The notes: generated by a model from the sequence alone, not told the origin. A stretch of 64,000 nt of DNA from the human T2T-CHM13v2.0 reference genome, Homo sapiens (GCF_009914755.1 NC_060931.1); one strand, 5' to 3'; shown: positions 12,264 through 59,300, numbered from the stretch's first letter. Numbers and translations: made by a program.

Positions 12264-13294
12264 TTATAACATATTAAATGTTTTGCTCCCAAGAGCTAGT
12301 AGTCAGAATCTCTCTCTTTTTCATTGCCATATCCTCAGCATCTAGCAGAGCATGGACATGCTATGTACTCAATAATTTGTTGAATGAATCCATTGTATTT
12401 GAAATAAGCTTCTATGAGCTCTTTTTTAGGTGGACTATGTTTCATTGGGCTGAATTAGTAAGTTAATGTCTATTTTGAATTCAGCATTTTGCATTACTGA
12501 ACAGACAGCATGATGTAACAGAAAGCAGTGAGGGAGCAGGTGGCAGTGTCTTAACTGTATCCCTGCTGTCAGGCCTGAGGCCTCTTTCATTGTTGTTAAG
12601 GGGAGTGCAATGTATACAAAGTTTCAGTTAGGCAAGATGAATAAGTTCTGGAGATCTGCTATACAACTTTGTGTTAATACTATATTGTACACTTAAAAAT
12701 CTGTTAAGAGGGCAGATCATATGTTACTTATTCTGACCACAATAAAAAAGTTGAATATATATGTTATATATATAATATATAAGTTTTTATAAAATATAAC
12801 TATAATTTTATAATTTATAAAATATAAATTAATATATATGTGAGGTTTTAGAGGCAGACAGACATAGAATGGGAAATCCAGTTTCATCATGTAGTAAATG
12901 TGGAATGTGGATAAGTAACTTAACTTTCTCTAAATTCAAATTTCATAACTTGTATGGTGAGGCTACCACCACCCACAAAAAAAGTTTAGTGGGAATAAAT
13001 CAGATAATGTGCATAATATGATTCAACTCAACAAGTACAATATTTCCTTTTCTCTACAGAATATATGTATATGTACATATTTACTAAAATTAAGGCAAGA
13101 GATTTCATGTTTGAAATTCTAGCTATTTAAACATTTCAATCAACATGATTAAAATATCAACTTACAACACGAGGGTCTTTAAAATATTGTGAAGTCATAA
13201 GTAGTATACAATTAAATATTGTTTTGATGAGTATATTTCCTTGTTCCTCTACAGCCTCTTCTATTTCTTAAAAATTGCTTTCTAGAAAACAAAC

Positions 13295-14459: not shown

Positions 14460-14894
14460 AAAAACCATTTCTTAAATTGCCTTTTTGTGATCATGTCTGT
14501 GTATGAGAATGCAGATGCTCAATCCCACATCTGTGTAGTGTTTCTATGCTTCCATTTATCTTCCCTCCATACACCACTTCCCTAGTCTAACACATTCTAA
14601 GCACCATGAGGACAGGGACAGGTTCTTTATCTGTCTTGTTCATTACTATATCCCCAGCTTCACACTTGGAAGATTAATAAATATTGGTTGAATTAATGAA
14701 GAAAGAAAGGAAGGAAACAGCAGAGGAAAGCTCATGGGAAATGATTTACCATTTAATAAAGTTTCACAGAGAAAATACAAAGGATGAACTTCAAAGAGGA
14801 AGAAATTGAAAGAAAGAATGGGTGAGCAGCAAGGACCAGTTGTACATTGAGGAACTGGGGAAATGTGGATAAATCAAAGTAAGATGAGTTGGTT

Positions 14895-21031
<6,137 letters not shown>

Positions 21032-21480
21032 GATACAAGAGGATGTTTTGAAGAAAAGCATTCCAAGATTCCTTGTTTGATTGGAAGAAGGGGAAAGATA
21101 TCAATGTATTTTATACTTGAACAAATCATATCTGTATGTTAAAATTTTATGGTTAGCCACCAAAAGAATAGAAGTAGCATATCTACCTTCCCAGTTAGTG
21201 TCAGTGGGGAGGGTAGCCATGGTAACAAATACAAAAGTTTTCCCCAAATTTCTATTTATTTTGCTCCTCGAATGCCAGTTTCCAATCTCCTCACAGTTTT
21301 GATGACACCTCTTCAGTCAATATTCGTTGACTCTGTATATCCTTATTAAAGCCTAGATAGAGCCTAATATTGTATTTTATATTCCAGGACTATATAACCA
21401 ATTTAGAGAGACTAGCACCTCTTCGGTAGCCCTCCTAATGAAATATACTGATTTTTAAAGTTTTAGTCATTGTTGTGTAA

Positions 21481-21874
<394 letters not shown>

Positions 21875-21979
21875 CAAAAACAGAACTTTTTTTAAAAAAA
21901 GAACATTTTTAAAGCTGCCCACACAATCTCAAAGCAATCCTTTTCCCTCAAAATACTTTAATGAGCTTATATTTTTTCT

Positions 21980-23960
21980 ATATGGCATATAGAAAAGTGC
22001 ATAACATTTCTAGCTTATAGAACTATTGTAAAAGGAACGTCCATGTAGTCACCATATAATTAACTGAAATAGAGAAATTATTATACTGAGTCTCCACTTG
22101 CCAGCCTCCAAGATAAGAATCAGCTACTGACCTGATTTTTGAGATCATCAACATAACCATTTCTATATACATATCAAACTATGATTTACTTTAATCTGTT
22201 TTTAAACAACATACAAATGGAAGTATGGAGTATTTTTTTTAATTTCGTACCTGGATTCATTCATTCAAAATTATATTTGTAAGATTCCACCATGTTGTGT
22301 GTAGCTGCATAGTTCATTCATTCTCATTATTGTATACTGTTCCACCATGTTAATAAACCAAAATGTATTCATTTCTCTGTTAATGGATATTTGGGTTGTT
22401 TCCAGTTTGAAGCTATTGCAAATAATGCTACTATATTATTGCATGTACTTCCCAGTACACATGTGCAACACTTTTTTGGGAATATATACTTTAAATTAGA
22501 ATTACTGAGTTACAAGGTATCTATATCTTGAACGTTATCAGATAATGTACACTGTTTACCAAAATAGTTGTACCAATTTATATGTCCACCTGTGGTGGAT
22601 GAAAGCTCCTTTATCAATCTATTAGATGTGAGCTGGTATTTCACTGTGGTTGAATTTGTATTTTCTTTATGACTAATGATGGTGGTCAACTTTACATATG
22701 TTTATTGACCATTTGGTATTCTTCTGGGAAATATCAGTTCATAAACAATTTGTCCATTTTTCTATCAGGTTGTCTTTCTTCCTTATCTTCCCACTCTAAT
22801 ATAAACTTCACAAGGACAGAGATTTCTGTCCTGTATTCCAAGCACCTAGAACAGTGCTCCTGGTCACAACAGTCTTTCAATAAATATTTATCAAATTAAT
22901 GAATGAAATTTCTGGATAGTAGGTGGGGTATACACTTTGTAAATATCTTCACTCACTTTGCAGTTTATTTTTTATCCTACAGTTCTTTTGAGGAACTGAA
23001 GTTCCTTTCATCAAATTTATCAGTTTTTCTTCATGACTGGATTTTTCTATCTTGTTTATGAAATCATTTCTTATTCTAAGTGACTTTTTCTATATTATAT
23101 GCTGAACACTTTATAAATTTGTCTTTCATATTTGAGTGTTTAATCCAACTTGGATTTATTACTTATATAGTTCCAATTTCTCCTTGTTCCATATGATCTC
23201 CCAATTATTTCAGCACTATTTATTAAAATGCCTGTCCTTACTCACCAATCTGCGATACCCACTCTTCCATATATCAAATGCCTTTAAATGTACATTTCTG
23301 CTTCTGGGCTCTACTCTATTGCAGTTATCTATTTGTCTATTGCTATGCCAATATCATAGTGTCTTTTTACATTAGCTTTATAATACAGCAACAATTGATA
23401 GTGCAAATCCTCCTTTTTCAAGAATACCTTGACTGTATTTCTCCCTTTGCATTTCTGAATAACTTTTAAATCAGCTCATCAAAGTCAACAAAAAATATGT
23501 TGGAATTTTGACTTGTAGAGCACTGAATCTATAAAGCTTTTTAATATCGAGTCTTCAATCAATGAATGTGGAATATCTCTCCACTTAGATTTTCCTAGAC
23601 ATATCTCAGGAATGTTTTAATCATTTTCCCATAGCTGTCATATGTATCTTTTGTTGGGTTTATTCTGAGGAATATCGTGCTTTTAATGCTATTCTAAATA
23701 GCATCCTTTCAAAATTTCATTTTCTATTTGATGCTAAAGTATAAAATTTATAATTTTGAATTTTAATATTAATGCTTACATCTAGTAACATTGTAAATTT
23801 TCTTATTATTGCAAATACTGTATCCATAAACTTTTAACATTTTTCTAGATACATGATGTAATCTACTTTTAAGAACACATTTCTTTTTTTTCAAGTTTTC
23901 CAATCCTTATACTTATTACTACTTTTCTTTTTATGTACCATGCTGGATAGTATCCCTGGC
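21980..23960 (-). mobile_element. Ancient L1M(E) fragments
   Basis: Degenerate antisense L1 ORF2/3' sequence. Confidence 0.65.
23285..23548 (+). repeat. Arm 1 of 264-bp inverted duplication
   Basis: Reverse complement of 28237-28500, 7 mismatches by hand. Confidence 0.95.
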
Positions 23961-25072
23961 ACAATACTGACTATGTCACTAGTTTTCATTGATTCTATGC
24001 TAGTCTTTTTTTATGCTGAAAACTTCCTAAAACAAAGAGTGTGTATATTTACTAATCTCTATATTGACATAAGCCCCATGAAAACTCAATAAATATTTGT
24101 TGAAAGAGTAAAGCTATCAATTAATTTTAATTTTAATTTTAAATATTTTGCACGATAAGAATAACATTGTAAAGAAATCTGATGATTCAGCTAGGAATAT
24201 GCTCCACTGAAAGAAACAGAAAACCTAACAAAAGTGGCTTACACAATATGGATGTTGTTTACTGTATCATCCAACAAGAAAATGAAAGATAAGTATCTGT
24301 TGGCATTGGTTCAGCAGCAGAAGGATGGTAGGCCAGATATATCTGCTATTTTTATGACCTTTCCCTTATGGTCACAAGATGACTGCTACAGTTCTGGGCA
24401 TGACATCCTAGTGCAATAAAAGCAGGAAGAAACAGAGAAGGGGCAGCTAAGTCTGTCCTTTTGTGAGAAAGGCAGATACTTTATTAGATGTAACCAAAAC
24501 TGACTTCAACTTAGTTTTCATTGGCAAAAACTAGCTGATATGGCTATCTCAGGGAGCAATTAAGTGTGGGGGCAAAACACATGACCATTGAGATTAATTT
24601 CAACTTATCACCTGAGACCGGTCTCACTGCTGCTTCATCGTGGTACTCTTATCAAGATAGACATGCTAGCAGATGTAAGTGCCTGCCACATGTGATTCAC
24701 AGTTTTTCCTACTGCTTTCTTAATTTCATCCTTAGAGAATACAATTAGAAATAAGCTGCTACTACTGCTAACCAAAGATCTCCTCCAATGTTTTATTAAT
24801 TTTACACATGAACTAGGAGATATTCCATTAAAGACTTTGTTAGGAAATCTGTTTAAACAACAGAATAAAAGGGACGACTTTGAGATAGAATTTTAGTGAC
24901 ATCTCCAGTTTCTGGTTACATGATATTGGTTAAGCTTCTGAAAAATCAAGTAAATCCACAAACTTTCCTGATATGAATCAATCTCATTAATTTTCCTTTT
25001 CATTTAATCAACGAATATCAGCCAGTCTGTAAAAGCCCACTGAAAGGTCCCTTAATTCAGTAGTAGTCTTAC

Positions 25073-25166
25073 CTCAGGTATGCTCCATACATGAAGAACA
25101 ATCCCATCATTAGTCCATTTAAAATAAAGATTACACCAACATAAAAGCAAGCAGGATCTCCCAATC
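25073..25166 (-). pseudogene. DPY19L2P1: Exon 6; carries premature TAA (25131-25133) in the shifted frame
   Basis: Ancestral frame LGDPACFYVGVIFILNGLMMGLFFMYGAYL; shifted frame DWEILLAFMLV*; aag|...|gtaaga; 94 nt. Confidence 0.92.
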
Positions 25167-25326
25167 CTTTGAAAAGATACAGATAATCAGTGTTTAATGA
25201 ATATATGACTCTAAAGCAATTGGGCATAATTATCTCAGTGCTTTGCAATCAAGAGCTCATGAATTTGCTGAAAGCATTTGCTTTCCAGATTGCCACTGTG
25301 TTTAATTCTTTACCCTTATAACAGTT

Positions 25327-25407
25327 TGTGTGTGTGTGTGCTTGCAGACACATATATATGTGTGTGTGTATATATATGTGTGTGTATATATACACATACA
25401 CATATGT
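25327..25407. repeat. Compound (TG)/(TA)/(CA) microsatellite
   Basis: Alternating purine-pyrimidine run. Confidence 0.85.
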
Positions 25408-26019
25408 AAGCTCACCCTAATGAGCAATTATATAGTTACACTTATACTTTATACTTTTTATAATTGCATTTATACTTTCCTCTAATGAATTACTATTATA
25501 CTGTAATGATTTGTTGGGGATTCACATTTATTTAGGTGATGCTGCTAGTGTTCAGTGTCTGGAACTGTCTGTAGAACCACTTAATGAATACAAAAGAAAA
25601 TCCATTACATTATTTTTATCTTTTTCTAGGTTCTAGGAAGAGTTAAGATATGGTTTTGACTTTAGGGTACAGCTTTAGTCTATATGAAATGATCCAGTCA
25701 TTTGATCCATTATTATGTATAGCTAGAATCTTAGTATATTCCATATAGAAGATCGTGTGTGTGTGTGTGTGGCAATATGTACTTAACAATCATCCCACAT
25801 TTTTCTCCGAACAAGTTTATGATATTAGCTGGTATAAAAATACTTTTCTTACGGTTGAGAAAACAGAACATAAGATATTCAACTTGTCAAAGGTTATTTC
25901 ACTTTAACTGGCTGGAGCCAAGGTCTGAAAGCTGGCCTTCTGATTCCCCCTGCCTCTCTGATCACTCCTTTCAGTCAGTTCTAGTAACTTCTCTTGTTTT
26001 ATGTACCACTCTTTAATAT

Positions 26020-26920
26020 TGGAACACCTTAGGCTCTGTCATATCCCCCCTTCATTTCTCCATCTGCATATTCTCCATAAGGAAATTCTTCTACATCCGT
26101 GGCTCCAATGATCTATATACAGATGACTCCAACTCTACATTTAATCCAGAACTTTCTCCTTATTCTTATACCCAGATAGCCACTTGATGTCCCCACTCTG
26201 AGGTCTCTCAAGTACCTCAAATTCATGAATACACAATGAAACATAACAATACAAACCTGCTGCTGTTCAAATGTTTCCTATCACTCAAAGGAGCTCAGTT
26301 ACTTAAGCTAGAAACCAAACTGTGTTTCACATGATTCTTCATTCACCTTCTCCTCTCTTACCAAACAATTACCAAGTCTTGTCCATTCTGCTTCCAAAAT
26401 CTCTCTCACATCCAGGCATTTCCACATTATCTTTCCTGCAATCACTTGCTGAGAATATAATTGTCTCCTACCTGGCCTCCCTTAACCTACTTTTGTTCCT
26501 TTACTAATATTTTTTCCATACCATTGACTAAATAATGTTTTAAAATGGAACTCTGTTAAAATTCTTCAATGGATAAAGTATAAAATCCTTCACCAGTGCA
26601 CCCCTTTCATGATCTGATCCTTGCTTATATTCCCAGCACCATTTCACATCATTTTTCTTCTCCATCGCTTCTAGGATTTCTAGCCTTTTTTCAGTTCTCT
26701 CTTGCTTCAGCATATTTGAATACATTATTCCCTATTCTTAAAATACTTATCCTCTCTTACTCCTAGTGTCGGTAACCTTATTTTCTTATTTGTAATATCC
26801 ATCACAATTGTAACTGCTAACAGCCCCCTTACAGCATAAACTCTATGAGGATAAGGCCCCACGTCTAGCTGGTTCATCTCTGTGTCCAAAGTGCCAAACA
26901 CTAACCTATCACTTATTGGG
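26020..26920 (+). mobile_element. L2 remnant
   Basis: Pyrimidine-rich L2-like sequence. Confidence 0.55.
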
Positions 26921-27911
26921 AATGTAACTAATACCATACTTAGGTGATCATTTTCACCACTCAGACAGGGTCACACCTTCTAGCTGACTGAATCATTGCA
27001 AAGTCTTTCATTTTATGAGGCATTTTCTCCAAACCTTTACATTGTACACAAAAAAGTGTAATTGCCCCTCAAACATCCTCATCAATTCTATTTTACTGAG
27101 GGAATCAGTAAAAAATGTAAGGAAAATAGATTTAGTTTATGTCCCAAGAGTTGAATGTTGTTACAAACAAGTCTAAAAATTTATTCATAAAATATAGTAA
27201 GTCATGTTGTTAAGAATTTGAAGAAATAAAGAAAAAACAACAGTGTTAGTGTTATGAAAATAGATACAAGTGGCTCTGAACGGGAGTCTCAAGGGACAGC
27301 ACCATACTTGAATTGTAAAAGTACTGAAATGCAAACATCTTAAATGGAAGTGACCACTATGTATCCTGGAAAGCTGTTAGATGATTCCAAAAGCGGTTCT
27401 TTGACAAAGAAACCAACGTAGAAGATAAATAGGAAGAGTTTTATTAATACTACTCATGGACTATGAGCATATATAAAAAAGTAATATTTCTAAATCAATC
27501 TATTATGGCATATCCAATTTTCAAATATGTATGCATAATTAAATTTATACATTAGCTATTACAAATAGATATTTGACTATTTAATGTATCCTCAAAATTT
27601 ATATATTGAAGCTACCCCAAAAAACATCTTTCTGTATCTTCTCATTCTGAAATAGAAGACTAACTTATAGTCAAGATTGCCTTACAATGGGATACGTTAA
27701 TACTCAAATTCCAAAATTTATACTCAAATTTTTAAGTACACAGCCTTCTCAGAAAACTACTTTAAAATGTAAAAATACTCATTGAGGTGAGTCAGTTCTA
27801 ATGTTTTTTAAATCAACAACAGAATTTTACAATAATTCTTAAAAGTGAATCATAATATTATTAAATGTTTATGAATGTTTACAAATGACAGCATTTTTGG
27901 AGGAAACATGC

Positions 27912-28031
27912 CTTCACAGCTTTGAACTCATTAAGAGGTTCTATTCTGGTGACATTCCAGCAGGTCTTAGTTTCTAGTCCAAATAAATTCATTATTCCTA
28001 TGAATGTGCGATACCAGGCAGCTATGATTAC
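27912..28031 (-). pseudogene. DPY19L2P1: Exon 5 with 1-nt frameshift deletion and GC donor
   Basis: [35 protein letters not shown] then shifted FKAVK; another frame reads VQSCE; 120 nt; ends AAG|gcatgt. Confidence 0.9.
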
Positions 28032-28081
28032 CTTAAAAAAGATAAAAACAAAGAGATAATTGAGGTAAATACATTCTCTTC

Positions 28082-28104
28082 ATAATAATAATAATAATAA
28101 TAAT
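28082..28104. repeat. (AAT)n microsatellite
   Basis: About 7-8 units. Confidence 0.85.
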
Positions 28105-28234
28105 ATATACCATGGAATACTATGCAGCCATAAAAAAGGATGAGTTCATGTCCTTTGTAGGGACGTGGATGAAGCTGGAAACCATCATTCTTGGCAAACT
28201 ATCGCAAGGACAAAAAAACCAAACACCGCATGTT
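28105..28234 (+). mobile_element. L1PA internal ORF2-end fragment, no tail or TSD
   Basis: Translates [27 protein letters not shown]. Confidence 0.85.
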
Positions 28235-28236
28235 TT

Positions 28237-28500
28237 GATATTAAAAAGCTTTATAGATTCAATGCTCTACCAGTCAAAATTCCAACATATTTTTTGTTGA
28301 CTTTGATGAGCTGATTTAAAAGTTATTCAGAAATGCAAAGGGCCAAATATAGTCAAGGTATTCTTGAAAAAGGAGGATTTGCACTATCAATTGTTGCTGT
28401 ATTATAAAGCTAATGTAAAAAGACACTATGATATTGGCATAGCAATAGTCGAATAGATAACTGCAATAGAGTAGAGCCCAGAAGCAGAAATGTACATTTA
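28237..28500 (-). repeat. Arm 2 of 264-bp inverted duplication
   Basis: ORFs 23278..23469(+) and 28316..28519(-) are nearly identical. Confidence 0.95.
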
Positions 28501-28609
28501 GAAATGTACCATAACTCATATGGTTATGAGTTCCGTGGGCTCTCTTTGTGCCTCATTTTCTCAGATTTGGAGTTAAAGAGGCTGGCAATCCAGAAATGCC
28601 AATGGGCAC

Positions 28610-28994
28610 TGCTATAGTTTGAATGTGTCCCATCCAAAATTCAGGTATTGAAACTTAATGGCCAATGTGATAGTATTAACAGATGGGACCTGCAAGAGGT
28701 GATTAGACCATGAAGATTCCCCCCTCATGAGTGAGATTAAAGCTGTCTTACTCTCCTACTGTCTGCCATGTGAGGACACAGTGTTCCTCTCCTTCAGAAG
28801 ATGCAACATCAAGGCACCATCTTGGAAGCGGAGAGCAGCCTTCACCAGACACCAAATCTGCTGGTGCCTTGATCTTGGACTTCCTTGGACTCCAGAATTC
28901 TTAGACTCCATAATTGTGAGATATAAATTTCTATTCTTTATAAATTACCTAGTCTCAGATACTTTGTTCAAACAGCACAAAACAGACTAAGACA
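28610..28994 (+). mobile_element. MaLR solo LTR (MST-type)
   Basis: tgctatagtttgaatgtgtcc ... aacagactaagaca. Confidence 0.85.
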
Positions 28995-29101
28995 AATATA
29001 CAAAAAGTACCCAAAAAGTCAAAAGTAAAAAAAATGTGGCTCTACCCCTACCGTATAAACAAAGGCCAAGTGGGGAAGCTAGACTTCCACCTTCCCTGGG
29101 C

Positions 29102-29345
29102 TTTTTTTTTTTTTCTGGGGATGGAGTCTCACTCTTTTCACTCAGGCTGGAGTGCAGTGGCGTGATCTTGGCTCACTGCAACCTCTTCCTCCTGGGTTCA
29201 AGCCAATTCTCCCGCCTCAGCCTCCCAAGTGGCTGGGATTACAAGTGCCCACTACCATGCCTGGCTAATTTTTGTATATTTAGTAGAGACAGGGTTTCAC
29301 CATGTTGGCCAGGCTGGTCTCAAACTCCTGACCTCAGGTGATCCT
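29102..29345 (-). mobile_element. AluS, truncated
   Basis: Antisense Alu lacking its 5' about 55 nt. Confidence 0.92.
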
Positions 29346-29664
29346 GAAAGCAACAAGATGGTGCCTTCCCCCTTTTCCCCTTCCTTTGCTTGAGTGATAC
29401 CAGAGGTATCTAGTTAAAATAGCAGGTTTAAATAAAATCCAGTCTCATAACATAATACTCAAAATGTCTAGGTTTCAAGTGAAAATCACTCATCAGGAAC
29501 CAGAAAGATCTCAAACTGAATGAGAAATAAATGGATTCCAATACTGAGATGAAAGAAATATTAGCATTATCAAGGATTTTAAAGCAACAATCATAAATAT
29601 ACTCTAATGAGCATGCTTAAAACAAAGGGAAAAATTGAAAAGTTTACCAGAGAAATAGTCTCAG

Positions 29665-32600
29665 CAAAAAAACAGAAATCAATACTAAGAACATCTCTCA
29701 AAACACATAAGTACATGGAATTTAAACAACCTGCTCCTGAATGACTTTTTGAGTCAACAAAGAAATTAAGGTAGAAATCAAGAAATTCTTTGAAACTAAT
29801 GAAAATAAAGATACAACATACCAGGATCGCTGGAACACAGCTAAAGCAGTGTTAAGAGGCAAATTTACAGAGCTAAATGCCCACTTCAAAAAGTTAGAAA
29901 GATCTCAAATTAACAACCTAACATCACACCTAGAGGAACCAGAAAAATAAGAGCAAAACAACCCAAAATCTAGCAGAAGACAAGAAATAACCAAATCAGA
30001 GATGAACTGAATGAAATTGAGACACAAAACACCATACAAAAGATCAACAAAACCACAAGTTGGTTCTTTGAAAGAATAAATTTAATAGACCACCAGCTAG
30101 ACTAATAAAGAAAAAGAGAGAGAAGACCCAAATAAACACAATCAGAAATGACAAAAGAGATATTACCATTGACCCTGTAGAAAAGCAAAAAACTCTGAGA
30201 GACTATTACGAACAACTCTATGGACACAAACTGGAAAACCTAGAAGAAATGGCTAAATTCCTGGAAATATATAACCTCCAAAGATTTAACCAAGAAGAAA
30301 TGAAAACCCTGAATAGACCAATAACAAGTTCCAAGACTGAATCACCAATAAAAAGCCTACCAGCCAGAAAAAGCCCTGGAACAGATGACTTCACAGCCAA
30401 ATTCTACCAGACATATAAGGAGAGCGGATACCAATCATACTGAAACTATTCCAAAAACTTGAGGGATTTCTCCCTTACTCATTCTATAAGGCTAACATCA
30501 TTCTGATGCCAAAATGTGGCAAAGCCACAATGTAAAAAAGAAAACTTCAGGCCAATATCTCTGATGAACATAGATGCAAAATCCTCAACAAAATACTAGC
30601 ATACTGAATCCATCAGCACATCAAAAAGCTAATCCACCACAATCAAGTAGGCTTTATTCCTAGGATGCAAGGGTGGTTCAACACAGGCAAATCAATAATT
30701 ATGATTGATCACATAAAAGAACTAAAAAAAAACCCCACATGATTATCTAAATAGATGCAGAAAAGGCTTTTGATAAAATTCAACATCCTTTCATTTTAAA
30801 AGCCTTCAACAAAGTAGGCATTGAAGGAACATACCTCAAAATTATAAGAGCCATCTATGAAAAACCCATAGCCAACACCATACTGAACAGGCAAAAGCTA
30901 GAAGCATTTGCCTTGAGAACTGGAACAACAAAAGGATGTTTACTCTCCCCATTCCTATTCAACATAGTACTGGAGGTCCCAGCCAGAGCAATCAGGCAAA
31001 AGAAAGAAAGAAAATAAATCCACATAGGAAGACAGGAATTCACACTATCTTTTTTGTAAACAATACAATTTTATACCTAGAAAGCCCCACAGTCTCTGAC
31101 TAAAAGCTCCTAGATGTGTCTTTTTAAAACTTCAGCAAACTTTCCGGATGTAAAATCAATGTACCAAAGTCAGTAGTATTTCTATGCACCAACAATGTCC
31201 AAGCTGGGAGCCAAATCAAGAATGCAATCTCATTCACAATAGCCACAGAAAAGTAATAAAAAACTTATAAAAGAATACCTAGGAATACAGCTAATTAGAG
31301 AGGAGAAAAATCTCTACAATGAGAATTACAAAACACTGCTGAAAGAAATCAGAGGCAATAAAAACAAATGGAAAAACATTCTATGCTCATGAATAGGAAG
31401 ATTCAATATTGTTAAAATCACCATATTACCAAAAGCAATTTACAGATTCAATGCTATTCCTATCAAACTACCAATGACATTTTTCACATAATTAGAAAAA
31501 CTATTCTAAAACTTATATGGATACTCCTTCAACGTAAATAAGGTTAAAATAAATAAATAAGTAAATAAAATAAAACACATATGAAACCAAAAAATAGTTC
31601 AAATAGCCAAAGCAATCCTAAGCAAAAAGGACAAAGCCAGAGGCATCATACTACCCAACTTCAAGCTATATTTCAAGGCTACAATAACCAAAACAGCATG
31701 GTGCTAGCACAAAAACACACACATAGACCAATGGAACAGAATAGAGAGCCCAGAAATAAAGTCACACACCTAGAACCATCTGATTTTCAACAAACCTGAT
31801 AACACAAGTCAATAGGAAAAAGGACTTCTTATTCAATAAATGATGCTGGGATAACTGGCTAGCCATATGCAGAAGACTGAAACTTCACCTTTCTTTTCCC
31901 CATACACAAAAATCAACTCAAGATGAATTAAAGACTGAAATGTAAAACCTAAAACAATGAAAACCCTAGAAGAAAACATAGAAAATACCATTTTGGACAT
32001 AGACCCTGGCAAAAATTTCATGACGAAGATGCCAAAAGCAATTGTAACAAAACAAAGATTGACAAATGCAACCTAATTAAATTAAAGAGCTTCTGCATAG
32101 CAAAAGAAACTACCAAGAGAGTAAACAGACAACCTACAGAAAGGGAGAAAATATTTGCAAACTGTTCATCTGACAAAGGTCTAATATCCAGAATCCATAA
32201 GGAACAAATCGAAAGTAAAAAAAAAAACCCCATTAAAAAATGGGTACTCCGTGCCACTCCCAGTCACAGCCTCCCATGCCTTGCTCAGCTCCAACATGGC
32301 AAAAATCTCCAGCCCTACAGAGACTGTGCGGTGCATTCAGTCCCTGATTGCTGTTTTCCAGAAGTATGCTGGAAAGGATGGTTACAACTGCAATCTCTCC
32401 AAGACGGAGTTCCTAAGCTTCATGAATACAGAGCTGGCTGCCTTTACAAAGAACCAGAAGGACCCCGGTGTCCTTGACCGCATGAAGAAACTGGATGTCA
32501 GCAGCGATGGGCAGTTAGATTTCCCAAAATTTCTTAATCTGATTGGTGGCCTAGCTGTGGCTTGCCATGACTCCTTCCTCAAGGCTGTCCCTTCCCAGAA

Positions 32601-33950: not shown

Positions 33951-34266
33951 GGCTGGTCCCGGTGGTTCATGCCTGTAATCCCAGCAGTTTGGGTGGCCAG
34001 GGCAGGCAGATTGCTTGAGCCCAGGAGTTCGAGACCAGCCTGAGCAACATAGTAAAACCCCATGTCTACAAAAAATTAAGAAAAATTAGCCAGGTATGGT
34101 GGTTGCGCATCTCAGGAGGCTGAGGTGGGCAGATCCCTTGATTCCAGGAGTCAGAGGTTGCAGTGAGCTGAGATTTCACCACTGCACTCCAGCCTGGGCG
34201 ACAGAGTGAGATCCTGTCTCAAAATAAATAAATAAATACATACATAAATAAATAAAAAAAGAAAGA
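33951..34266 (+). mobile_element. AluJ
   Basis: gattgcttgagcccagg; (TAAA)n tail; TSD gaaataat(t/g)actg. Confidence 0.92.
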
Positions 34267-34713
34267 AAAAGAAATAATGACTGGACTTCCTATATATGGC
34301 AAAAGATATAAACCTAAATATTCAAGGAGCTGAGCAAATCTCAAACAGAAAAAATCTAAACAAATCCACACTAAAACACAACATACTTTAGAAAACATTT
34401 GAACTTTGAACATTATACTTTGATACACTTTTGAAGACTAAATTTAAAAAAATACTGAAACCAACAAGAGAGAAACAAAACCTTACCTAAAGGAGAAAAA
34501 GAATTCAACTAACAGCAGATTTATCATTAGAAACTATGGAGGGCCAGAACAAAATGGCACAACACTTGCTGAATGCTGAAAGAAAGGAACTATCGACCCA
34601 GAATCCTATCTCCAGCAAAAATATCCTTCAGTAATGAAAAGCAACTGCATTCTCTGAGTTAAGAAAAACTAAAAAAAATTTTAAAAAAATTTAAAAATTA
34701 AACAAAAAATGCA

Positions 34714-42089: not shown

Positions 42090-42227
42090 CTCTGGATAAA
42101 GATGGAAGCGTTTTACTGTATTAATTACAAGAGGATATTCAGTAAGCCTGTCATTCATAATCATCCACAGTCCTTCCAAAAATGAAGGTGCTTCAATGAT
42201 GGTCTTGAAGTAGGAATAATAAAGTCC
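42090..42227 (-). pseudogene. DPY19L2P1: Exon 4 ([16 protein letters not shown]...FHLYPE)
   Basis: aag|...|gtgagt; 138 nt; visible in ORF track 42051..42260. Confidence 0.93.
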
Positions 42228-52259: not shown

Positions 52260-53065
52260 TATATATATATGTTTTTTTATATATGTTTTTATTATACTTT
52301 AAGTTCTAGGGTACACGTGCACAACATGCAGGTTTGTTACATATGTATACATGTGCCATGTTGGTGTGCTGCACCCATTAACTCATCATTTACATTAGGT
52401 ATGTCTCCTAATGCTATCCCTCCCCCTCCCCCCACCCCACGACAGGCCCCAGTGTGTGATGTTCCCCTTCCTGTGTCCAGGTGTTCTCATTGTTCAATTC
52501 CCACCTGTGAGTGAGAACATGCGGTGTTTGATTTTTTGTCCTTGTGATAGTTTGCTGAGAATGCTGGTTTCCAGCTTCATCCATGTCCCTACAAAGGACA
52601 TGAACTCATCATTTTTTATGGCTGCAGAGTATTCCATGGTGTATATGTGCCACATTTTCTTAATCCAGTCTATCATTGTTGGACATTTGGGTTGGTTCCA
52701 AGTCTTTGCTATTGTGAATAGTGCCGCAATAAACATATGTGTGTATGTGTCTTTATAGCAGCATGATTTATAATCCTCTGGGTATATACCTAGTAATGGG
52801 ATGGCTGGGTCAAATGGTATTTCTACTTCTAGATCCCTGAGGAATCGCCACACTGTCTTCCACAATGGTTGAACTAGTTTACAGTCCCACCAACAGTGTA
52901 AAAGTGTTCCTATTTCTCCACATCCTCTCCAGCACCTGTTGCTTCCTGACTTTTTAATGATCGCCATTCTAACTGGTGTGAGATGGTATCTCATTGTGGT
53001 TTTGATTTGCATTTCTCTAATGGCCAGGGATGATGAGCATTTTTTCATGTGTCTGTTGGCTGCAA
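52260..53065 (-). mobile_element. 5'-truncated L1PA (about L1PA4)
   Basis: ORF2 C-terminus in ORF 52494..53198; probable TSD atgattta. Confidence 0.92.
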
Positions 53066-56389: not shown

Positions 56390-59300
56390 CTTTTTTTTAA
56401 AAAATTAAAATTTGGAAATATTTAAAGGGCTAGTGCAGTGTCTTAGTTATAAGTGTTAACAGAATTTAAATCTTCACTATTCCTAAAAGAAACCCCATAC
56501 CTACTTGCAGTCATTTCCATTCCTCCCTCCTTCCAGCCTCTGGCATGCACTAATCCATTTTCCATCTCTATGGATATTTCTATGCTGGACATTTCACATG
56601 CATGGGATCATATAACATGTAATCCTTTTTGACCAGCTTCTCTTAGCATCCTGTTTTCAAGGTTCATCCATGCTGTAACATTTATCATACTTCATTTTTT
56701 ATAGCTGAATAATCTTCCATTATATGGATATGCCACATTTTATTTATCCATTTGTCAGTTGATGGGCATTTGGGTTGTCTCCACTTTTTGCCTATCATGA
56801 ATGATGCTGCTATGAACATTCGTGTACGGGTTTTTGTGTGGACATACCTCTTCATTTTTCCTGGGTGTACACCTAGGAGTGGAATTGCTGGGTCATATAG
56901 TAAGTAACCTTTTTTTATCCTTTTCACGAATGGCCAGACTACATCATTTTATATTCTTACCGACAATATATAAGGGTTCCAATTTCTCCGCATCCTTGCC
57001 AACTTGTTATTGTAATTATAATTATAGCCATCACAGTGGTTCTTACGCGGTATCTCATTGTTGTTGTTGTTTTACTAAGAGGCTATTTTTAGAGCAGTTT
57101 TAGGTTTACAGAACAATCGAGTAGAAAATCTAGAAGTCCCATATATCCCCTCTCCCCCACACTGGCAGTCTCCCCTATTATTAAACTACTGCATTATTGT
57201 AGTGCATTAGTTACAATTGATGAACCAATATTGGTGCATTATTGACCAAAAAGTCCATTGTTTACATTACAGCTTACTCTGAGTTGCACAGTAGTATGAG
57301 TTTTGACAAATGCATGATTTCATGTATCTACTACTACAGTAGCATCACAGAGTTATTTCACTGGCCTAAGTATCACCTGTGCGCCATCCCTTCATTTCTC
57401 CCTCTTTCCCCCCAAACCGTGGAAACCACCAATCTTTTTACCATCTCTGTAATTTTGCCTTTTCCAGAATGTCATATAATTAGAACCGCCCAGTGTATAG
57501 CTCATTTTTCACTAGCAATATGTATTTGAGATTCCTCCAAGTCTTTTCACAGCTTGATAGTGCATTTCTTTTTATTGCTGAAAAATATTCCATTGTATGG
57601 ATAATGGATGTACCACAGACTGTTCATCCATTACCTATTGAAGGACATCTTAGTTCTAAGTTTTGGCAATTATGAATAAAGCTGCTGTCAAGAGTCATGT
57701 GCAGATTTTTAAGTGGACATAAAATTTTAACTCACTTGGGTACATACCCGGGAACATACTTGCTAGATCATATGATAAGACTTTGTTAGTTTTGAAAGGA
57801 ATTGACAAACTTTCTTTTTAAATGGCTGTACCATTTTGCATTCCACCAGCAATGAATGAGAGTTCCTATTGCCCCACATCCTCACCAGCATTAGCATTGC
57901 TAGTGTTTTGAATTTTAGCTCTTCTAATAGGTATGTAGTTGTAGCTCATGTTTTAATTTGCAACTCCCTAATCACATGTGATGTTGAGCACCTTTTCATA
58001 TGCTTATTTGCCATCTGTATATCTTTAAGTATCTGTTCAGAGAGATCCTTTGCCCATAATTTGTCTTTTCCTTACTGTTGAGTTTTAAGAGCTCTTTGTA
58101 TATTTGAAATACGAATCCTTTATCAGATATGTTTTTGCAAATATTTACTCCCAGAGTGTGGCTAGTCATTTTATTCTCTTAACAATGTTTTTCACAGAAG
58201 TTTTTAATTTTCATGCAGTCCATCATGTTAATTTTTTTGTTAATGGATTGTACTTTTGGTGTTGTACCTAAAAAACCAAAACTACCTAGATTTTCTCCTG
58301 TTACTTTCTAGAAATTTTATAGTTTTGCATTTTGTATTTAAGTCTATGATCCATTTAAGTTAATTTTGCAAAAGATTTAAAGTCTGTGTTTAGACTTATT
58401 ATTTTGCATGTGGATATTCAGTTGTTCTAGTACCATTTGTTGAAAAGGTTATTATTTCTCCACTGAATTGCCTTTGTTCCATTGTCAAAGATCATTTAAC
58501 CATATTTATGTGGGCTTAGTTCTGGGCTCTCTGTTCCATTTATCTAATTGTCTATTCTCTTGCCAATAGTACACTCTTTATTACTATAGTTCTGTAGTAA
58601 GTTTTGAAGTTGGGTAGTGTAAGTCCTCTGACTGCTTATCTTCTTTAATACTGTGTTGGCTATTTTGGGTATTTTGCCTTTAAATAAACTTTAGAATCAG
58701 TTTGTTCTTAGCCACAAGTAACTGGCTGGAATTTTGGTTGTGTTTGCACTGAATATATAGATCAAGTTGGGAAGAACAGACATCCTCACAATATTGAGTC
58801 TACCTATTCATGAACATGGACTATCTCTCCATTTATTTAGATCTTCTTTGATTTATTTCATCAAAGTTTTGTAGTTTACCTTATATAGCTTTTGTGAATA
58901 TTTTGTTTATATCTATTTGTTGTTTTTTCCTTCTTTAGTGATGATATAACTGTTGATTTCAAATTCCAACAGTTCATTTCTGGTATATAGGAAAGCAACG
59001 GTCTTTTAAAGTATTAATCTTGTATCCTCTAACCTTGCTATAATTCAACCTTGCCATAATCACTTATTAGATCTATGAGTTTGTTGAAAGCACATTATTT
59101 TCTATTTTTTAAAAATATCAATAAAAATAGGAAGGAAAAGATCCATTAAAACTCCAAACAAACCGAACAAATAAACCCACTTGTATTGCGCATGAGTAAC
59201 ATAACTATCCAGGAGGACAAAAAATGAATTAATCAAAGTAACTGCTGAACATATCATTTGGCTATATACTGTTAGTTGAGTAGCACGGAAACAACGCAAA

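What the first reader, a model, noticed from the sequence alone, without database searches (positions are those of the whole stretch)
23285..28500. Recent 264-bp inverted duplication brackets exons 5-6, which carry the frameshift and stop
Seen: 23285-23548 and 28237-28500 are reverse complements with 7/264 mismatches (about 97%). The source is a highly degenerate L1M, so this is a local copy rather than two independent insertions. In pre-mRNA the arms could form a long duplex looping out exons 5 and 6; one arm lies only about 205 nt from the exon-5 acceptor. Inference: this could promote a 214-nt exon 5-6 circRNA, exon skipping, A-to-I editing or a 4.7-kb inversion polymorphism. Skipping exons 5-7 would restore the frame.
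Basis: partly seen in the sequence, partly recalled or inferred. Interest (0 to 1): 0.7.

Follow-up and report, generated by a model that had tools for sequence, protein, structure and literature searches.

The report
Old inverted repeat flanking circular-RNA exons
The inverted repeat is real, but it also sits in the working gene DPY19L2 and in a second pseudogene, where it flanks the two exons of an already catalogued circular RNA, so it is an ordinary example of a known mechanism.

Summary
In detail: 23285-23548 and 28237-28500 are reverse complements with 7 of 264 mismatches and sharp ends. Arm 1 lies inside a continuous old L1. Arm 2 is a copy joined to a 132-bp young L1 fragment.

The repeat is not private to this pseudogene. 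Both arms and the L1 fragment sit at the same places in DPY19L2 (chr12) and DPY19L2P2 (7q22). None of 30 variable columns separates the arm 1 copies from the arm 2 copies, and all P1 arm differences are P1-private. The arms were therefore identical when the three paralogues split, at about 2.4% divergence.

The link to the frameshift is coincidental. The frameshift is a P1-only 1-nt deletion in exon 5.

The predicted exon 5-6 circle exists for DPY19L2. It is circBase hsa_circ_0007104, and its array probe equals the exon 6 end joined to the exon 5 start. In DPY19L2 the arm pair is the best and nearest inverted repeat across those exons.

No data exist for a circle from DPY19L2P1 itself. Editing, exon skipping and inversion polymorphism were not tested. 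This is a new member of a known kind, of modest interest.

The parts
23285..23548 (-). Arm 1, the source copy. It is a piece of an old L1 ORF2 region lying in intron 6 of DPY19L2P1, 1524 nt downstream of the exon 6 donor. Ancestrally it reached 23550.
   Evidence: pair, 7/264; independent L1 copies align through both ends (23086-23655 to 58291-58907; 22948-23806 to 20079-19158, reversed); the element at 15758-21042 is an L1 in sense on the + strand, so arm 1 is L1-sense on the - strand; 266-bp ancestral extent.
28237..28500 (-). Arm 2, the derived inverted copy, in intron 4, 205 nt upstream of the exon 5 acceptor. Ancestrally it started at 28235.
   Evidence: its flanks are unrelated to L1M; the same copy with the same junctions is present in DPY19L2 and DPY19L2P2.
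28103..28234 (+). 132-bp internal fragment of a young primate L1 (3' part of ORF2, sense on +, without the L1 3' end or a poly-A tail), directly abutting arm 2.
   Evidence: 92.4% to 20660-20790 and 52516-52646; orientation of the reference L1; 96-97% identity to many dispersed L1 copies (40 of 2466 candidates scored) and 98% to the DPY19L2P2 copy.
28082..28104 (.). (ATA)n microsatellite at the exon-proximal edge of the L1-fragment-plus-arm-2 block. It is also the point (28092) where two older partial copies of the locus stop being homologous.
   Evidence: sequence at the junctions. (homology of the 7p copies ends at 28092).
27912..28031 (-). Exon 5 (120 nt) with AG acceptor and GC donor. It carries the P1-private 1-nt deletion that shifts the frame.
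   Evidence: exon 5 is 121 nt in DPY19L2 and DPY19L2P2 (GAAGTT versus GAGTT in P1), and the GC donor is shared by all three.
25073..25166 (-). Exon 6 (94 nt), identical to DPY19L2 exon 6. It holds the first stop in the shifted frame. Its GT donor is the back-splice donor of the catalogued circle in DPY19L2.
   Evidence: 100% identity; probe match.
23286..23297 (.). 12-nt perfect palindrome AAATGTACATTT, 1 nt inside the outer end of arm 1. Its copy lies at 28488-28499 in arm 2.
   Evidence: 40 such palindromes in 64 kb; these two are the only ones within 23000-23700 or 28000-28700.
28501..28532 (.). Outer flank of arm 2. It holds a 9-nt direct repeat of the arm's GAAATGTAC, 5 nt from the junction, and an 8-bp-stem hairpin starting at 28513.
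   Evidence: sequence; 37 such hairpins in 64 kb; 9-mers repeated within 30 nt occur at 2.2 per kb.

Best explanation
A 266-bp piece of an old L1 in intron 6 of the ancestral DPY19L2 locus was copied once, in inverted orientation, into intron 4 about 4.7 kb away. It landed next to, or together with, a 132-bp fragment of a then-young L1, at an (ATA)n tract 50 nt upstream of exon 5. I infer that this was a filler insertion at a repaired chromosome break.

The insertion happened after two older partial copies of the locus had branched off. It happened shortly before the locus was duplicated to give DPY19L2 (chr12), DPY19L2P2 (7q22) and the copy left behind, DPY19L2P1. All three inherited it.

In the pre-mRNA the two arms can form a duplex of about 260 bp that brings the exon 6 donor close to the exon 5 acceptor. 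I infer that this favours back-splicing into an exon 5-6 circle. That circle is catalogued for DPY19L2. DPY19L2P1 has the same layout and should make a 214-nt circle wherever it is transcribed.

The frameshift and stops of DPY19L2P1 are later, unrelated, private mutations.
For: Shown:
- The pair is real and arm 1 is the source.
- Both arms and the L1 fragment are co-linear in DPY19L2 (97.0% over 9031 columns) and DPY19L2P2 (97.1%).
- Genome-wide there are 8 high-identity copies: 3 loci with two arms and 2 loci with arm 1 only.
- 0 of 30 variable columns in the 266-bp arm alignment separate the arm 1 copies from the arm 2 copies. All 8 P1 arm differences are P1-private, 5 in arm 1 and 3 in arm 2.
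- Within-locus arm differences are 8 (P1), 3 (L2) and 6 (P2). The regional paralogue divergence of 2.3-2.4% over 6233 ungapped columns predicts about 6.3.
- All six arms share 8 states that differ from the two older copies, which stand at 5.4%.
- circBase hsa_circ_0007104 is hg19 chr12:64038182-64041145, minus strand, exonic, DPY19L2. Its 60-nt junction probe equals the last 36 nt of DPY19L2 exon 6 plus the first 24 nt of exon 5 (PMC5667857 supplement row; locus sequence).
- In DPY19L2 the arm pair (266 bp, 98.9%) has the highest score of 45 inverted pairs in 56 kb. It lies 215 nt and 1524 nt from the two splice sites. The 6 other intron 4 x intron 6 pairs are 74-85% identical and at least 5.9 kb from exon 5.
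- In P1 the arm pair is the best pair inside the transcribed region.
- Predicted duplex energies are -427 (P1), -456 (L2) and -437 (P2) kcal/mol.

Established knowledge: pairing of reverse-complementary matches in flanking introns facilitates back-splicing (abstract of PMC8938519 and title of PMC8330042, search listing).
Against: - No experiment or read data link the arms to the circle. The association is positional only.
- No circle from DPY19L2P1 was found in text searches or in the readable supplements of 4 circRNA surveys. One further supplement could not be read. In Salzman 2013 the gene has linear RPKM of 0.05 or less and circle count NA.
- An Alu pair across the same introns has an even lower computed duplex energy (-491 kcal/mol), although it lies more than 10 kb from the exons.
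- The RefSeq transcript includes exons 5 and 6, so linear splicing is not blocked.
- The repair mechanism is inferred only. No empty site is available, because the older copies end exactly at the insertion edge.
- Column 60 (A in both P1 arms and in P2 arm 1) hints at some gene conversion. Conversion would allow an older origin than the arm identity suggests.
Confidence: 0.6

Rival explanations
1. The repeat is a neutral repair scar with no measurable effect on RNA processing. The exon 5-6 circle of DPY19L2 arises from splice-site context, Alu pairs or RNA-binding proteins, and the flanking position of the arms is incidental.
For: Several Alu pairs also bridge introns 4 and 6, and one has a lower computed duplex energy than the arms. 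Cattle DPY19L2 also yields a validated circle (PMC6083711, passages and supplement row). The arms drift at the neutral rate after the split, with 8, 3 and 6 differences against about 6.3 expected, so there is no sign of selection to keep them paired.
Against: The arms are by far the closest and most identical complementary pair around exactly the two exons that circularise. The cattle circle is a different one: its reverse primer maps to exon 4 (42155-42177, 2 mismatches), and its forward primer did not map to the window. Neutral drift of 1-3% does not yet weaken a 260-bp duplex.
Confidence: 0.3
2. The inverted copy is much older, made at the same break that produced the two older partial copies ending at the same (ATA)n. 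Gene conversion between the arms then kept them identical until the three-way duplication.
For: The homology of the two older copies ends at window 28092, within about 11 bp of the edge of the inserted block. That is unlikely by chance in a region of more than 6.5 kb. Column 60 shows one pattern compatible with arm-to-arm conversion.
Against: With a clock, the time between the older split (5.4%) and the three-way split (2.36%) predicts about 8 fixed arm-specific differences; 0 are seen (hand calculation, Poisson P about 3e-4). After the split the arms diverged at the full neutral rate in all three loci, so conversion was weak then. The L1 fragment is 96-97% identical to many dispersed copies, which suggests a young fragment.
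Confidence: 0.08
3. The pair is two independent L1M insertions, or an assembly artefact of this genome.
For: None beyond the fact that both arms are L1-derived.
Against: Other L1 copies match at 69% or less over comparable length. Arm 2 has sharp ends and no L1M in its flanks. The same structure is assembled at three separate loci with locus-specific substitutions.
Confidence: 0.01

Closest known systems
Back-splicing promoted by reverse-complementary matches in flanking introns (usually inverted Alu pairs in primates)
   Same: The complementary arms lie in the intron upstream of the first and downstream of the last circularised exon. They are close to the splice sites. The back-splice sites are canonical (AG acceptor of exon 5, GT donor of exon 6). 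A catalogued circle has exactly these ends in DPY19L2.
   Different: The arms are not Alus. They are a one-off local inverted duplication of an old L1 piece: AT-rich (31% GC), 97-99% identical, and present as only 8 copies in the genome. Whether the circle depends on the arms has not been shown.
circBase hsa_circ_0007104 (DPY19L2 exons 5-6)
   Same: It comprises the same two exons and the same flanking repeat as in the window. Exon 6 is 100% identical, and exon 5 is 95.9% identical with one 1-nt gap.
   Different: It is recorded for chr12, not for this chr7 pseudogene. The P1 junction would differ at 3 of the first 24 nt of exon 5. No P1 entry was found.
Templated or filler insertions at repaired double-strand breaks, including endonuclease-independent L1 insertions (recalled from the literature; no paper was read here)
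   Same: A short copy of nearby sequence is placed in inverted orientation, joined to an internal L1 fragment that lacks the L1 3' end and poly-A. The junctions have 0-2 nt of ambiguity. Small palindromes and a hairpin lie at the junction.
   Different: No empty site, target-site duplication or deletion could be assessed. The L1 fragment may instead be the remnant of an earlier ordinary insertion.
DPY19L2 low-copy-repeat family (Carson et al. 2006, PMC1475853, passages read)
   Same: The window is the ancestral locus that became DPY19L2P1. The paper reports paralogue identities of 94-98% and stops in exons 6 and 7. The frame analysis and divergences measured here are consistent with this.
   Different: In the passages I read, the paper does not mention this inverted repeat or the shared (ATA)n breakpoint. 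I did not read its additional files.

Membership tests
Exons circularised with the help of flanking intronic inverted repeats | Reverse-complementary sequences, one in the intron upstream and one in the intron downstream of the circularised exons | tested here: met
   P1: intron 4 and intron 6 arms, 264 bp at 97.3%. DPY19L2: 266 bp at 98.9%, top of 45 inverted pairs.
Exons circularised with the help of flanking intronic inverted repeats | Canonical splice signals at the back-splice acceptor and donor | tested here: met
   Exon 5 acceptor ...TTTTTTAAG| and exon 6 donor |GTAAGA, in P1, DPY19L2 and DPY19L2P2.
Exons circularised with the help of flanking intronic inverted repeats | An observed back-splice junction joining the downstream donor to the upstream acceptor | tested here: inconclusive
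   Met for DPY19L2: the hsa_circ_0007104 coordinates and junction probe equal exon 6 end plus exon 5 start. For DPY19L2P1, the gene in the window, no record was found, and no read data were available.
Exons circularised with the help of flanking intronic inverted repeats | Circle formation depends on the repeats (lost when an arm is removed) | not testable with these tools
   This needs a minigene or genome edit, or circle data from species without arm 2.
Feature inherited through segmental duplication (not locus-specific) | The same feature, with the same junctions, at the co-linear position in paralogous copies | tested here: met
   both arms, the L1 fragment and both junction sequences are present in DPY19L2 and DPY19L2P2. 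There are no arm-specific columns.
Templated (filler) insertion at a repaired break | An empty pre-insertion site in an outgroup or older copy | tested here: inconclusive
   The only older copies (7p, 5.4% diverged) stop being homologous at 28092, the edge of the block, so they show neither an empty nor a filled site.
Templated (filler) insertion at a repaired break | The insert is a copy of nearby sequence with sharp, low-homology junctions | tested here: met
   The source lies 4.7 kb away in inverted orientation. Identity drops at once at both ends, with at most 2 nt (AA) of ambiguity at the L1 side.
Ordinary L1 retrotransposition (target-primed) | L1 3' end with poly-A tail and flanking target-site duplication | tested here: not met
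   The fragment matches 20660-20790 of an L1 whose masked block reaches 21042 (gene table) and whose pair alignment reaches 21021. So it stops more than 200 bp short of that element's 3' end and is followed by arm 2, not by poly-A. No duplication of 7 nt or more was found between the block's two outer junction neighbourhoods.

The most novel reading that the evidence does not exclude
A single composite repair insertion, made of a young L1 fragment plus an inverted copy of 266 bp of intron, arose in an ape ancestor. It created a near-perfect intronic duplex that gave birth to a lineage-specific circular RNA (exons 5-6) in DPY19L2, a gene needed for sperm head formation. The three-way segmental duplication then spread the same circle-making cassette to two transcribed pseudogenes.

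The (ATA)n tract at its edge would be a recurrent breakpoint, because it also bounds an older duplication. On this reading the repeat is necessary for the circle, and species without it lack the circle.
Probability: 0.35. Interest if true: 0.45.

Novelty: new member of a known kind. Interest (0 to 1): 0.3.

Why it matters
It gives a clean, datable case in which a one-off local inverted duplication, not an Alu pair, flanks exactly the exons of a catalogued circular RNA. It comes with three natural replicates (DPY19L2, DPY19L2P1, DPY19L2P2), whose arms now differ at 3, 8 and 6 positions. That makes the dependence of a circle on its flanking duplex testable by comparison across paralogues and across primates.

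The repeat has nothing specific to do with how this pseudogene was inactivated. Anyone counting back-splice reads at DPY19L2 should separate the three paralogues, which differ at only a few bases at the junction. For human biology at large the finding is minor.

Tried and rejected
1. Whole-genome DNA search with the arm failed twice (no usable answer). A pattern search then worked, and a later DNA search also worked.

3. A scan of bacterial and archaeal genome contigs for human contamination carrying the arm found nothing.

4. Searches for a DPY19L2P1 circle:
- Full text: 'DPY19L2P1' with 'circRNA' gave 2 papers, listing only, neither opened.
- 'circDPY19L' anywhere gave 4 papers, all about DPY19L1 or DPY19L1P1.
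- Supplements of PMC5153637, PMC5660143, PMC4165365 and PMC8938519 had no occurrence. These files may be truncated or incomplete.
- The PMC6626923 supplement was unreadable.
- PMC3764148 lists the gene with circle count NA at very low expression.

5. Microhomology models for the outer junction. A primer ending in GTACATTTC annealing inside arm 1 predicts a product without the extra 14 nt that is seen. I therefore rejected simple microhomology-primed copying, whether DNA- or RNA-templated. The 9-nt repeat, the palindrome and the hairpin remain unexplained.

6. The local L1 at 15758-21042 as source of the L1 fragment. Rejected: identity is 92.4% where about 97% would be expected, while many dispersed copies are 96-97% identical.

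7. An 8-nt match (ATATCAAA) between the arm 1 left flank and the arm 2 inner junction. Judged compatible with chance.

8. An endless reading frame on the 214-nt circle. Rejected: 16 stops in each frame over three turns.

9. Pfam on short frames across arm 1 gave no family (4 of 4 frames without a hit). L1 identity rests on DNA alignment to the L1 whose ORF1, endonuclease and reverse-transcriptase domains were found (3 of 11 translated stretches with hits).


Full report
**1. The observation**

The repeat finder on 22500-29500 returns a single inverted pair: 23285-23548 and 28237-28500, 264 nt, 97% complementary, 4688 nt apart. A direct comparison gives 7 of 264 mismatches, and similarity is lost immediately on both sides. 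The perfect runs are 49, 1, 98, 5, 0, 71, 8 and 25 nt long.

The pair is not a chance match or a family resemblance:
- Other L1 copies in the window match arm 1 at 63-68%.
- A 30-mer from the arms occurs twice in the window and never in 100 shuffles.
- In the whole genome there are eight full-length matches at 94-100%. The next best are 69% over 232 nt or 83% over 71 nt, with 40 of 80 candidates scored.

**2. Which arm is the source**

The block at 15758-21042 is an L1 in sense on the + strand. Pfam finds the L1 ORF1 domains in 16311-16934, the endonuclease in 16977-17675 and the reverse transcriptase in 18663-19250. That is 3 of 11 translated stretches with hits; the four short frames across arm 1 gave none.

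Window 22948-23806 aligns to this L1 in reverse (to 20079-19158), and 23086-23655 aligns to a third L1 at 58291-58907. Both alignments run through both ends of arm 1. Arm 1 is therefore part of a continuous, very diverged L1, in sense on the gene's strand.

Arm 2 has unrelated flanks. On one side is a 132-bp L1 fragment (28103-28234, sense on +, 92.4% to two L1 copies in the window). On the other side is sequence found nowhere else in the window. Arm 2 is the copy.

**3. The repeat is shared with the working gene**

A 30-mer from the arms, allowing up to 3 mismatches, hits eight places in the window's own genome:
- the two window arms;
- a + / - pair on chr12 (63621102 and 63626178);
- a + / - pair at chr7:104.57 Mb;
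- two single hits at chr7:29.83 Mb and chr7:32.86 Mb.

Window 21500-30500 aligns co-linearly to the chr12 locus (97.0% over 9031 columns) and to the 7q22 locus (97.1%). Each of those holds both arms and the L1 fragment, with the same junctions. The exons show that these loci are DPY19L2 and a full-length paralogue. The circBase row names the chr12 gene. The name DPY19L2P2 for the 7q22 copy follows Carson et al. (PMC1475853, passages) and my recollection of its map position.

In the alignment of the eight arm copies, 30 of 266 columns vary:
- None separates the three arm 1 copies from the three arm 2 copies.
- All eight differences between the P1 arms are private to P1: five in arm 1 (offsets 156, 157, 229, 238, 264) and three in arm 2 (49, 51, 150).
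- DPY19L2 arm 1 has no private change.

The arms were therefore identical when the three loci separated. A hand calculation bounds the earlier independent history at about 0.56% per lineage (zero events in 2 x 266 sites gives a 95% upper bound of 3 events).

Over 6233 ungapped columns (alignment ends and gapped columns dropped from 6603), the three paralogues differ by 2.28-2.36% from one another. They form a near-star: 57-60 private and 6-8 pairwise-shared derived sites. Within-locus arm differences of 8, 3 and 6 fit the roughly 6.3 expected at that rate.

With recalled primate substitution rates of 0.5-1.2e-9 per site per year this is roughly 11-27 million years, with a wide Poisson interval.

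**4. Older copies and the breakpoint**

The two single-arm loci on 7p are 97.4% identical to each other over 19.5 kb and 5.4% diverged from the three full copies. They carry exons 5 onward and arm 1.

Their homology to the window ends at 28092, inside the (ATA)n tract. There they continue with sequence that matches only Alu-like stretches elsewhere in the window, and whose first 31 nt occur only at these two loci. In the three full copies the L1 fragment starts at the other end of the same short tract.

Two independent breakpoints thus fall within about 11 bp of each other. If the arm copy had been made at the older event, about 8 arm-specific differences should have been fixed before the three-way split, and none is seen. 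I therefore prefer recurrent breakage at the microsatellite over a single event. Arm-to-arm conversion could hide an older origin: column 60 shows A in both P1 arms and in P2 arm 1.

**5. How the copy arose (inferred)**

The insert is a nearby sequence in inverted orientation with sharp ends. At the inner end at most 2 nt (AA) are ambiguous between the arm and the L1 fragment.

Three features mark the outer end:
- The outer end of the arm lies 1 nt from a 12-nt perfect palindrome (40 such in 64 kb).
- The outer flank repeats 9 nt of the arm, 5 nt from the junction.
- The outer flank has an 8-bp hairpin 13 nt away (37 such in 64 kb).

The L1 fragment lacks the L1 3' end and poly-A. It is 96-97% identical to many dispersed L1 copies (40 of 2466 candidates scored), so it was young at about the time of the event. 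It was not copied from the local L1, which is only 92.4% identical.

Both pieces are RNA-sense on the + strand. This is compatible with a cDNA patch, but it has a one-in-two chance of occurring anyway.

My best reading is a filler insertion at a repaired break in or beside the (ATA)n tract. Whether it was DNA- or RNA-templated, and whether the L1 fragment was already there, cannot be settled without an empty site. Simple microhomology-primed models do not reproduce the outer junction.

**6. What it does (inferred, with one piece of outside evidence)**

In the pre-mRNA, arm 2 lies 205 nt upstream of the exon 5 acceptor and arm 1 lies 1524 nt downstream of the exon 6 donor. The arms can form about 258 pairs with a computed energy of -426 kcal/mol. 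For the 266-bp ancestral arms the energies are -427, -456 and -437 kcal/mol in P1, DPY19L2 and P2.

Among the 66 inverted pairs in the window with E of 1e-10 or better, only a 780-bp L1 pair scores higher, and one of its arms lies upstream of exon 1. The other intron 4 x intron 6 pairs are Alu-like (77-84% identical) and more than 10 kb from the exons, except for arms at 33960-34284 and 21541-21863. One Alu pair has a lower computed energy (-491 kcal/mol) because of its GC content.

In DPY19L2 the arm pair is first of 45 inverted pairs in 56 kb. The six other intron 4 x intron 6 pairs are 74-85% identical and at least 5.9 kb from exon 5.

The Arraystar table in the supplement of PMC5667857 lists hsa_circ_0007104: circBase, chr12, minus strand, hg19 64038182-64041145, exonic, NM_173812, DPY19L2. 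Its probe is letter for letter the last 36 nt of DPY19L2 exon 6 followed by the first 24 nt of exon 5. The main-text table reports it as up-regulated in infantile haemangioma. The genomic span is 2961 bp in this genome, against 2963 in hg19.

This fits the established rule that complementary intronic matches facilitate back-splicing (abstract of PMC8938519 and title of PMC8330042, listing only). It does not show dependence on the arms.

A validated cattle DPY19L2 circle (PMC6083711) involves exon 4: its reverse primer maps to 42155-42177 with 2 mismatches. It is therefore a different circle.

For DPY19L2P1 itself I found nothing. Carson et al. report its expression in brain, heart, placenta and testis.

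**7. The frameshift and stops**

- The open frame from the start codon runs through exons 1-5 and changes frame in the last 20 nt of exon 5.
- DPY19L2 and P2 have a 121-nt exon 5 (…GAAGTT…), while P1 has 120 nt (…GAGTT…). This is a private 1-nt deletion.
- The first stop follows in exon 6, which is otherwise identical to DPY19L2 exon 6.
- A second stop lies in a 129-nt extension of exon 7. P1 has GTAAGT at the downstream donor where DPY19L2 has ATAAGT.
- These results agree with 'stops in exons 6 and 7'.
- Skipping exons 5-7 (401 nt) or exons 6-7 (281 nt) leaves no stop in exons 1-11. The arithmetic is right, but nothing suggests it matters.
- The GC donor of exon 5 is shared by all three paralogues, so it is not a defect.

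Because the intact gene has the same repeat, the repeat did not cause these lesions and has no special relation to them.

**8. Not tested**

Exon skipping, A-to-I editing and inversion polymorphism could not be examined. In this one genome the segment between the arms has the same orientation at all three loci. The longest perfect run between the P1 arms is 98 nt.

**9. Verdict**

This is an ancestral local inverted duplication, inherited by three paralogues, that flanks the exons of a known circular RNA. It is a new member of a known kind, of modest interest.

Noticed in passing
window 28082-28104; G000 C7:32866148 and C7:29825042: Two older partial copies of the locus on 7p (5.4% diverged from the window, 97.4% identical to each other over 19.5 kb) stop being homologous at 28092. 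That is inside the same (ATA)n tract that borders the L1-fragment-plus-arm-2 block. It suggests a recurrent breakpoint at this microsatellite.
   Followed up: partly
window 13160-13294 (exon 7 extension and its donor): The 187-nt exon 7 of the RefSeq transcript is a 58-nt exon followed by a 129-nt extension that holds an in-frame stop. P1 has GTAAGT at the downstream donor where DPY19L2 has ATAAGT, so a P1-private change seems to have created the donor that is used.
   Followed up: partly
window 27904-27911: The donor of exon 5 is GC (GCATGT), not GT. It is the same in DPY19L2 and DPY19L2P2, so this is a natural GC-AG intron of the family.
   Followed up: yes
window 18041-21023 versus G000 C12:63612646-63618780: Intron 6 of DPY19L2 is about 6.1 kb longer than in the window. 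The 3' 3 kb of the window's L1 aligns twice in DPY19L2, with about 3.1 kb between the two matches. This is either a second L1 in DPY19L2 or an L1-L1 deletion in P1.
   Followed up: no
window 14466-21556: This 7.1-kb stretch, including the L1 at 15758-21042, is missing from the two older 7p copies. It was therefore inserted after they branched off, or was deleted in them.
   Followed up: no
window 23345 and 28440 (arm offset 60): Both P1 arms and P2 arm 1 carry A where the other five copies carry G. This is one column compatible with arm-to-arm or inter-locus gene conversion, or with parallel change.
   Followed up: partly
window 20249-21021 and 52286-53064: A 780-bp inverted pair of L1 3' ends (92.8%) is the highest-scoring inverted repeat in the window. 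One arm is in intron 6 and the other lies about 3 kb upstream of exon 1.
   Followed up: no
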